The notes under the pieces were generated by a model. That model was not told the origin of the DNA. It saw only the letters and a program-made list of their open reading frames with translations, and made no database searches. This document shows positions 15,177-15,569 of a DNA stretch of 47,971 bases, piece by piece. The DNA is taken from the IMG/VR virus record IMGVR_UViG_2623620505_000002; one strand, written 5' to 3'. Each line of letters opens with the position of its first letter. Position 1 is the stretch's first letter. Source of the stretch: a virus (lineage: Duplodnaviria; Heunggongvirae; Uroviricota; Caudoviricetes). A program made the translations under genes and the position numbers.

Positions 15177-15569
15177 ATGAAGAAACTTGTTTTAGTCGCA
15201 GGTGTAATGATTGCAACAGTAATGTTGGGAGGGTGTGCAGCAAAGGTCGATCCAGCGTTGAAAGCAGAAGCAATGAAGCCACTAACATGTAATGATGAAA
15301 AGCAATGTGACTTTTATTGGAAACGAGCGTAATTCTGGTTGGCTAATAATTCCTCATGGAAAATTCAAACGGCGACAGACACGCTAATTTCCACTTATAA
15401 TCCCTCTCCAAATAGTCCATTCCTCGCTTATCAAGTGAGTAAAATGCCAAATGAAGATGGATCCTCAAGAATTTTCATCAAGCCTTTTTGCGATAATATG
15501 TTTGGCTGTCAACCAAACCCCTATCAGGCAGTTGTTTCCTTTAAAAATTTCGTTAAAACAGGGCAGTAG
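15177..15569 (+). pseudogene. Lipoprotein gene interrupted by an in-frame TAA at 15330-15332
   Basis: Signal peptide with lipobox (MKKLVLVAGVMIATVMLGGC); the 51-codon ORF and the downstream 76-codon ORF are in the same frame, separated by one stop. Confidence 0.45.

What the first reader, a model, noticed from the sequence alone, without database searches (positions are those of the whole stretch)
15177..15569. Lipoprotein gene split by a single in-frame TAA
A signal peptide with lipobox opens a 51-codon ORF that is in the same frame as the next 76-codon ORF, separated only by TAA at 15330-15332. This is either a recent nonsense mutation creating a pseudogene, a sequencing error, or two products. 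Prophage cargo genes are often decaying, so this may mark domestication.
Basis: seen in the sequence. Interest (0 to 1): 0.4.

Follow-up and report, generated by a model that had tools for sequence, protein, structure and literature searches.

The report
Prophage lipoprotein gene killed by nonsense mutation
A small lipoprotein gene carried by a lambda-like prophage of E. coli has been cut short by a single recent C-to-T change that turned a conserved glutamine codon into a stop, which is an ordinary young pseudogene and not a new mechanism.

Summary
An ATG at 15177 opens a signal peptide with an LGGC lipobox. The frame stops at TAA 15330-15332 and then stays open to TAG 15567-15569. Both halves match, residue for residue, one intact 130-aa protein (WP_000737636.1). 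That protein is encoded in 250 of the 251 complete E. coli genomes that carry this stretch, and all 250 read CAA (Gln52) where the window reads TAA. Gln52 is invariant in 12 homologues from Enterobacter, Pantoea, Phytobacter and metagenomes. The whole frame, including the part after the stop, is under purifying selection (dN/dS about 0.04-0.12).

The TAA allele is not a sequencing error. The exact 51-aa product is on 103 contigs from several sources, all read in the same prophage lineage, which is marked by an ISEc20 insertion 1.1 kb upstream. Some of these contigs carry further deletions or an IS3 junction inside the dead half of the gene. There is no suppressor tRNA in the window and no Shine-Dalgarno sequence before the downstream TTG.

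Verdict: a very recent nonsense pseudogene in a slowly decaying prophage, which is ordinary. Side result: the intact protein belongs to a large, uncurated family of lipoproteins carried as extra genes by phages and mobile elements. It has a confidently predicted fold with no solved relative, and its function is unknown (possibly receptor masking).

The parts
15177..15332 (+). 5' part of the lipoprotein gene: signal peptide (residues 1-19), lipobox LGGC (Cys20), 31 further residues, then the premature TAA (15330-15332). RefSeq annotates it as a 51-aa hypothetical protein (WP_157795068.1).
15330..15330 (+). The mutated base: T in the window, C in intact alleles (CAA Gln52 -> TAA).
   Evidence: alignment A1; allele counts (1 TAA against 250 CAA among complete E. 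coli genomes)
15333..15569 (+). 3' remainder of the same gene, in frame (78 codons plus TAG). It encodes the end of the long helix, the four-stranded sheet, the C-terminal helix and the second conserved Cys pair of the intact protein. It is no longer translated from the gene's own start.
15767..15792 (+). Terminator-like GC hairpin followed by a T-run, closing the lipoprotein cassette.
   Evidence: fold z = -3.1
15103..15121 (+). Degenerate copy of the same terminator sequence (13-mer ACCCGCTTCGGCG plus T-run, 3' arm missing), just after hokD. Together with 15767-15779 it forms a direct repeat flanking the cassette.
   Evidence: 2 matches, 0 expected
14878..15033 (+). hokD (type I toxin), the upstream neighbour. 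In every E. coli phage or prophage compared, homology to the window begins at 14692, so hokD and the lipoprotein gene travel as one mosaic block.
12836..14032 (-). ISEc20 (IS110-family) transposase gene inserted in the nin region. It marks the prophage lineage carrying the TAA allele and is present in every TAA contig read that extends that far upstream.

Best explanation
The region is one gene, not two. It is a 130-codon extra gene ('moron') of a lambda-like prophage and encodes a secreted, lipid-anchored protein. A single C->T transition at window 15330 changed the conserved codon Gln52 (CAA) to TAA and inactivated it. Translation from ATG 15177 now ends after 51 residues. After signal-peptide cleavage this leaves at most a 32-residue lipopeptide that lacks the beta-sheet, the C-terminal helix and the second disulfide pair, so it is most likely non-functional. 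The 3' 237 bases are an untranslated remnant. The mutation is very young, because no other change has accumulated. It arose once in a prophage lineage already marked by an ISEc20 insertion and has been inherited by descent. Shown here: the mutation itself, its rarity, its single lineage, its independence from any one assembly, and purifying selection on the intact gene. Inferred: loss of function of the truncated product. The biological role of the intact protein is also inferred. My best guess is an outer-membrane lipoprotein that changes the cell envelope of the lysogen, for example by masking a phage receptor.
For: (1) Alignment A1 shows that EC11, E. coli 042 and phages vB_EcoS-689R5 and vB_EcoM-606R7 all read CAA where the window and VG12A2 read TAA. 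Each of the four has an annotated intact 393-bp CDS.
(2) A 61-mer carrying TAA matches exactly in 1 of 251 complete E. coli genomes. The same 61-mer carrying CAA matches exactly in the other 250.
(3) Q52 is invariant among 13 sequences from at least four genera at 67-84% identity to the repaired E. coli protein.
(4) dN/dS is 0.07-0.12 over the whole gene and 0.04-0.10 for the part after the stop, in comparisons where dS is not saturated.
(5) The exact 51-aa product is on 103 contigs, and the intact 130-aa product is on at least 1000, the counting cap.
(6) Six TAA contigs were read. They are >=99.97% identical to the window locally. The five that extend upstream (L006-L010) share the ISEc20 insertion. 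Three of them differ downstream: L009 lacks window 17849-26751, L010 has an IS3 junction at window 15420, and L008 diverges after 19787.
(7) The window is not VG12A2: there are 271 mismatched or gapped positions over 42.8 kb, concentrated in the tail-tip genes.
(8) The window and EC11 differ at only one base in 551.
(9) There is no tRNA gene in the window.
(10) The AlphaFold model of the family (pLDDT 94.3, pTM 0.82) is a single compact domain spanning residues 26-128, so the stop falls inside helix 41-58.
Against: Nothing contradicts it. Some points remain open. No expression or protein data exist, so residual activity of the 32-residue lipopeptide cannot be formally excluded. The allele persists on about 100 contigs, which would also be compatible with neutrality or even a benefit of loss. 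RefSeq annotates the 51-codon fragment as an ordinary CDS and not as a pseudogene.
Confidence: 0.93

Rival explanations
1. Sequencing or assembly error: the true sequence is CAA and the gene is intact.
For: Only one complete genome of 251 shows TAA. A single-base difference is the commonest kind of error.
Against: The exact 51-aa product is recorded on 103 contigs from NCBI, ENA and Logan assemblies. The contigs read come from different assemblies with different downstream structures. The window itself differs from VG12A2 at 271 positions. A substitution in non-repetitive sequence is not a typical systematic error.
Confidence: 0.01
2. Two functional products: a short secreted lipopeptide (residues 20-51) plus a separately translated 76-aa C-terminal protein that starts at TTG 15339, possibly by reinitiation 7 bases after the stop.
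For: Both ORFs are intact and in frame, and the TTG is close enough to the stop for some reinitiation in principle. The allele has persisted in about 100 sequenced isolates.
Against: No Shine-Dalgarno-like sequence precedes 15339: the upstream bases are GAGCGTAATTCTGG. The C-terminal piece would lack a signal peptide and so would stay in the cytoplasm, away from the disulfide-forming compartment that its conserved Cys105/Cys111 pair implies. The fold model is one domain whose long helix 41-58 would be cut in two. No homologue in any genus is split here. Other E. coli isolates carry different, scattered lesions of the same gene: stops at W48, W54 and W61, and frameshifts. That is the pattern of random loss, not of a selected split.
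Confidence: 0.04
3. Programmed recoding: the TAA is read through or suppressed, so a full-length protein is still made.
For: None specific. Some phages carry suppressor tRNAs or use recoding.
Against: No tRNA gene of any kind is in the 48-kb window. The stop is TAA followed by T, which from my own knowledge is the most efficient termination context in E. coli (Poole, Brown and Tate 1995). 250 of 251 genomes have a plain sense codon, so there is no conserved recoding signal.
Confidence: 0.01

Closest known systems
Ordinary nonsense-mutation pseudogenes in E. coli prophages (gradual prophage decay by point mutation, IS insertion and deletion)
   Same: There is a single premature stop in an otherwise perfectly conserved accessory gene. 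The same prophage carries ISEc20 and IS3 insertions, and sister copies carry multi-kb deletions.
   Different: Nothing of substance. The only peculiarity is its youth: zero additional substitutions relative to the nearest intact allele.
PHROG 16082 (phage protein family of unknown function), with distant PHROG 4186
   Same: The repaired protein matches phrog_16082 end to end (E = 2.6e-84, 1-130 of 130) and phrog_4186 weakly (E = 2.2e-8).
   Different: The window copy is truncated at residue 51. The family has no assigned function, and no Pfam, NCBIfam or PADLOC model matches it.
Phage superinfection-exclusion lipoproteins that mask the phage's own receptor from the periplasmic side: Llp of T5 (FhuA), Rtp45 of Rtp (LptD), Cor of phi80/N15 (FhuA)
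   Same: All are small phage-encoded lipoproteins. Family members sit next to tail-tip or adsorption genes (before gpJ in Pantoea, after the tape-measure gene in Enterobacter) or next to repressor, SieB or toxin-antitoxin genes that are expressed in lysogens. The mechanism of Llp and Rtp45 is described in PMC9586334 and PMC12685063.
   Different: There is no sequence or fold similarity. The only Cor hit (phrog_1119, E = 0.007) covers the signal peptide. Neither the PDB sequence search nor the fold search found Llp or Rtp45. The mature protein is about 110 residues with two conserved Cys pairs, against roughly 6 kDa for Rtp45. In the E. coli window the gene lies in the nin region, not beside the receptor-binding gene. 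The function is untested.
Bor lipoprotein of lambda (a lysogen-expressed moron lipoprotein)
   Same: Both are lambdoid-prophage moron lipoproteins of about 100-130 aa. A true bor gene is also present in this window (21388-21681, minus strand).
   Different: The repaired protein does not match the Bor family in Pfam or NCBIfam. The sequence and predicted fold are unrelated.
Helix-grip-like alpha+beta domains of lipoproteins (BamC N-terminal domain, Francisella Flpp3)
   Same: These are the top Foldseek neighbours of the high-confidence model. They share the general arrangement of a helix, an antiparallel sheet and a C-terminal helix.
   Different: E-values are only 0.03-0.1, TM-scores are at most 0.46 and sequence identity is 9-14%. 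This is not evidence of homology.

Membership tests
Nonsense-mutation pseudogene | Close relatives encode one uninterrupted ORF covering both halves | tested here: met
   A 393-bp CDS is annotated in E. coli 042, EC11 and phages 689R5 and 606R7.
Nonsense-mutation pseudogene | The stop replaces a sense codon that is conserved in the family | tested here: met
   CAA is present in 250 of 251 complete genomes. Gln52 is invariant in 13 sequences across genera.
Nonsense-mutation pseudogene | The intact gene is a real, selected coding sequence, including the part downstream of the stop | tested here: met
   dN/dS is 0.07-0.12 overall and 0.04-0.10 downstream of the stop. There are 1145 family clusters.
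Nonsense-mutation pseudogene | No recoding or suppression mechanism is available | tested here: met
   No tRNA is found in the window. The context is TAA-T. Host-encoded suppressors were not examined.
Nonsense-mutation pseudogene | Absence of the full-length protein and loss of function | not testable with these tools
   This needs protein detection and a phenotype.
Bacterial lipoprotein (Lgt/LspA substrate) | N-terminal signal peptide ending in a lipobox [LVI][ASTVIG][GAS]C | tested here: met
   The sequence is MKKLVLVAGVMIATVMLGG-C20. Cys20 is nearly invariant in 89 family members. Ala at +2 argues, by the +2 rule (my own knowledge), for outer-membrane sorting.
Bacterial lipoprotein (Lgt/LspA substrate) | Actual lipid modification and globomycin-sensitive processing | not testable with these tools
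   This is an experimental test.
PHROG 16082 | Full-length profile match | tested here: met
Phage moron (independently inserted accessory cassette) | Base composition differs from the flanks, and the position varies among related phages | tested here: met
   GC is about 0.40 across 15200-15800, against 0.51-0.59 in the flanks. The gene is found in the nin region, in the tail module, in the immunity region and elsewhere.
Phage moron (independently inserted accessory cassette) | Own terminator and own promoter | tested here: inconclusive
   A terminator-like hairpin lies at 15767-15792. The consensus scan found no sigma-70-like promoter between hokD and the ATG.
Cor / Llp / Rtp45 superinfection-exclusion lipoproteins | Sequence or fold similarity to a characterised member | tested here: not met
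   phrog_1119 (Cor) gives E = 0.007 over residues 1-44 only, which is the signal peptide. Neither PDB search found a relative.
Cor / Llp / Rtp45 superinfection-exclusion lipoproteins | Gene adjacent to the receptor-binding or tail-tip gene | tested here: inconclusive
   This holds in Pantoea (directly upstream of gpJ) and nearly holds in Enterobacter (tail module). It does not hold in the window, where the gene is in the nin region next to hokD.
Cor / Llp / Rtp45 superinfection-exclusion lipoproteins | Blocks adsorption or DNA entry of the cognate phage | not testable with these tools
   This needs plating assays with the intact allele.
Bor family | Match to the Bor profile | tested here: not met
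   There is no Bor hit in Pfam or NCBIfam at E <= 1.

The most novel reading that the evidence does not exclude
The pseudogene itself is ordinary. The intact protein, however, defines a large phage- and mobile-element-borne lipoprotein family that no curated database describes: about 1145 clusters at 50% identity, with two conserved Cys pairs and a confidently predicted alpha+beta fold that has no solved structural relative. Family members sit at positions typical of lysogen-expressed genes and next to tail-tip genes. The family could therefore be a new class of receptor-masking, superinfection-exclusion lipoprotein, or another kind of envelope-modifying lipoprotein. If so, the TAA lineage would be a natural loss-of-function control.
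Probability: 0.3. Interest if true: 0.45.

Novelty: already known. Interest (0 to 1): 0.1.

Why it matters
It matters little in itself. It is one more young pseudogene in a prophage, and the allele is already in public databases, where the 51-codon fragment is annotated as a 'hypothetical protein' when it should be flagged as a pseudogene. Two things are of modest use. First, it is a clean, datable marker (together with the ISEc20 insertion) for one prophage lineage that can be followed through further decay steps. Second, it draws attention to an uncharacterised, widespread family of phage moron lipoproteins for which nature has supplied near-isogenic intact (EC11) and null (this window) alleles.

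Tried and rejected
- Pfam, NCBIfam and PADLOC scans of the repaired protein found no family. A Pfam scan of 89 family members found nothing real either.
- A PDB sequence search with the family profile gave nothing below E = 0.3.
- Foldseek against the PDB, with the moderate and then the high-confidence model, and against BFVD with the moderate model only, gave no match at E <= 0.001. The weak BamC, Flpp3 and KA1 resemblances were rejected as evidence of homology.
- The hit to Cor (phrog_1119) was rejected because it covers only the signal peptide.
- The search for related loci on genome contigs failed twice: alignment A4 was too diverse and A3 gave no confirmed locus. The taxonomic spread therefore rests on source names and on contig look-ups.
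- A literature search for the accession WP_000737636 found nothing.
- A suppressor tRNA was looked for and none was found.
- The idea that the window is simply strain VG12A2, which would make the allele a single observation, was tested and rejected.
- A promoter for the cassette was looked for with the consensus scan and not found between hokD and the ATG. The one strong match (15372-15401) lies inside the gene and is probably chance (3 found against 2.4 expected).

Full report
**1. The observation**

ATG at 15177 opens MKKLVLVAGVMIATVMLGG-C, a textbook lipoprotein signal peptide with an LGGC lipobox.
- The frame stops at TAA 15330-15332 after 51 codons and is then open again from 15333 to TAG 15567-15569.
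- The ORF lister begins the second ORF at TTG 15339 only because that is the first possible start codon.

**2. One gene or two?**

- A 551-base query around the locus matches 254 complete E. coli genomes and two phage records.
- In E. coli 042, EC11 and phages vB_EcoS-689R5 and vB_EcoM-606R7 the region is annotated as a single 393-bp CDS. In the two E. coli genomes the product is WP_000737636.1, a 130-aa hypothetical protein.
- The DNA alignment (A1) shows CAA in all four where the window and strain VG12A2 have TAA.
- EC11 differs from the window at this one base in 551.
- So the finding is a single C->T transition at window 15330 that converts Gln52 to a stop.

**3. How common is each allele?**

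- A 61-mer centred on the codon in its TAA form matches exactly in 1 of 251 complete genomes (VG12A2). In its CAA form it matches exactly in the other 250.
- In the 15-billion-protein collection the exact 51-aa product is recorded on 103 contigs from NCBI, ENA and Logan. The intact 130-aa protein is on at least 1000 contigs, which is the counting cap.

**4. Is it a sequencing error?** No.

- The window is not VG12A2. The two differ at 271 aligned positions over 42.8 kb, concentrated in the tail-tip and fibre genes, and they have different distal ends.
- Six TAA-bearing contigs from different assemblies were read (L006-L011). All are >=99.97% identical to the window locally.
- Three of them have their own downstream structures:
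  - L009 lacks window 17849-26751, which covers Q, the lysis genes and the terminase genes.
  - L010 has an IS3 end joined at window 15420, inside the dead half of the gene.
  - L008 diverges after 19787.
- The five that extend upstream (L006-L010) carry the ISEc20 insertion at window 12836-14032.
- The allele therefore arose once, in a prophage already marked by ISEc20, and has been inherited while the prophage continued to decay.

**5. Is the intact gene real and selected?**

- Homologues at 66-85% identity exist in Enterobacter hormaechei, Pantoea, Phytobacter and metagenomes.
- Gln52 and the following Phe-Trp are invariant.
- Nei-Gojobori estimates give dN/dS of 0.07-0.12 for the whole gene and 0.04-0.10 for the part after the stop, where dS is not saturated.
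- The window copy has accumulated no further change, so the mutation is very recent.
- Other E. coli isolates carry different lesions of the same gene: stops at W48, W54 and W61, several frameshifts and two fusion junctions. This is the scatter expected of occasional random loss of a dispensable accessory gene.

**6. Alternatives**

- Read-through or suppression: there is no tRNA gene in the window. The stop is TAA followed by T, which from my own knowledge is the strongest terminator context in E. coli. No conserved signal can exist when 250 of 251 genomes have a sense codon.
- Two products: no Shine-Dalgarno sequence precedes TTG 15339, and the C-terminal fragment would have no signal peptide.
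- The family model (AlphaFold2 with 89 sequences, pLDDT 94.3, pTM 0.82) is a single domain: helix 26-32, strand 36-38, long helix 41-58, four strands between 63 and 106, and helix 115-128. The stop cuts the long helix.
- The truncated product would retain the lipid anchor and Cys38/Cys44. It would lose the sheet, the last helix and Cys105/Cys111, all of which are conserved in the family.

**7. What the intact protein is**

- No curated family matches it. Pfam, NCBIfam and PADLOC give nothing, and none of 89 relatives hits a real Pfam family.
- It is PHROG 16082 (E = 2.6e-84) and distantly PHROG 4186, both of unknown function.
- A profile search of 1.84 billion representative proteins finds 1145 clusters at E <= 0.001 and 530 at E <= 1e-10, mostly 125-135 aa.
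- Neither sequence nor fold comparison with solved structures gives a significant match. The best neighbours are BamC N-domain, Flpp3 and KA1, with TM <= 0.46 and E >= 0.03, so they are only generic alpha+beta look-alikes.
- Context is consistent across all loci examined:

| Source | Position of the gene |
|---|---|
| Enterobacter | between the tape-measure gene and gpM |
| Pantoea ananatis | between gpI and gpJ |
| Phytobacter | beside a minor-tail remnant |
| Yersinia | after parDE, near sieB and the repressor of a prophage |
| Thiobacillus | directly downstream of the repressor-like HTH gene of an integrated element |
| metagenome phage | after an Arc-like gene |
| other metagenome contigs | beside mobilisation, early-region or defence-island genes |
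| this window | nin region, right after hokD |

- In the window the cassette has low GC (0.40 against 0.51-0.59 in the flanks).
- The cassette ends in a terminator hairpin and is bracketed by a 13-base direct repeat of that terminator sequence.
- It therefore behaves as a mobile 'moron' cassette.

**8. Most likely function (inferred, not shown)**

- It is probably an outer-membrane lipoprotein made in the lysogen or early in infection that alters the envelope.
- Because some copies sit next to tail-tip genes and others next to repressor and exclusion genes, I rank receptor masking first, at about 0.3. The models for this are Llp and Rtp45 (PMC9586334, PMC12685063).
- It is not a member of those families by any test I could run.

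**9. Verdict**

- The surrounding prophage shows other early signs of decay. It has ISEc20 and IS3 insertions, and no spanin-sized ORF follows the endolysin. In VG12A2 an ORF6N pseudogene is annotated. Sister copies have lost the late-gene control and lysis region.
- This is ordinary biology and scores low.
- The uncharacterised lipoprotein family is the only part that might repay further work.

Noticed in passing
window 12836-14032 (transposase ORF, minus strand): An ISEc20 (IS110-family) element is inserted in the nin region of the prophage. It is present in VG12A2 and in all TAA-allele contigs that extend that far. It is absent from the intact-allele prophages of EC11 and E. coli 042 and from phages 689R5 and 606R7.
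   Followed up: partly
window about 22470-23641 (+): An IS3 element (orfA 22470-22778, orfB 22826-23641) lies between the DUF1398/bor region and the small terminase gene. In contig L010 an end of IS3 is joined to window position 15420, inside the dead 3' half of the lipoprotein gene.
   Followed up: partly
window 21071-21387: Only 317 bases separate the GH108 endolysin gene (20477-21070) from bor (21388-21681, minus strand). No Rz/Rz1-sized spanin ORF is seen there. The lysis cassette may be incomplete, or it may use an unrecognised spanin.
   Followed up: no
window 15103-15115 and 15767-15779: The exact 13-mer ACCCGCTTCGGCG, followed by a T-run, occurs twice (0 expected by chance) and flanks the lipoprotein cassette. 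The downstream copy is a complete terminator hairpin (z = -3.1). The upstream copy, just after hokD, lacks the 3' arm. It looks like the scar of a cassette insertion into the hokD terminator.
   Followed up: partly
window 14692-15611: In every E. coli phage or prophage compared (L001, L003, L004, L005), homology to the window begins at exactly 14692. So hokD and the lipoprotein gene move together as one mosaic block. In phage 606R7 the block ends at about 15611.
   Followed up: partly
window 37000-44400: The window and its closest complete genome (VG12A2) differ at only about 35 positions in the first 36 kb. They diverge sharply in gpJ and the tail-fibre genes (84% identity at 43262-44346). 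VG12A2 has lom between J and the fibre gene, whereas the window has only 58 bases there. This points to recombination replacing the host-range module.
   Followed up: partly
L009 (GCA_045069015.1) and L008 (GCA_045069055.1): Sister prophages carrying the same TAA allele have lost large internal segments. L009 lacks window 17849-26751, so rusA is followed directly by gpW and the portal gene. L008 diverges after 19787. These are later steps in the decay of the same lineage.
   Followed up: partly
NZ_CP128592.1 locus tag QUS04_RS14680 (= window 15177-15332): RefSeq annotates the 51-codon fragment as a normal CDS (WP_157795068.1, hypothetical protein) and not as a pseudogene of WP_000737636.1.
   Followed up: yes
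family level (alignment A4, model mf3799d113205): There is a large uncurated family of lipoproteins borne by phages and mobile elements: 1145 clusters at 50% identity. Cys38, Cys44 and Cys105 are invariant, and Cys20, Trp48, Thr73, Ile99 and Cys111 are nearly invariant. The pLDDT-94 model has no significant PDB neighbour.
   Followed up: partly
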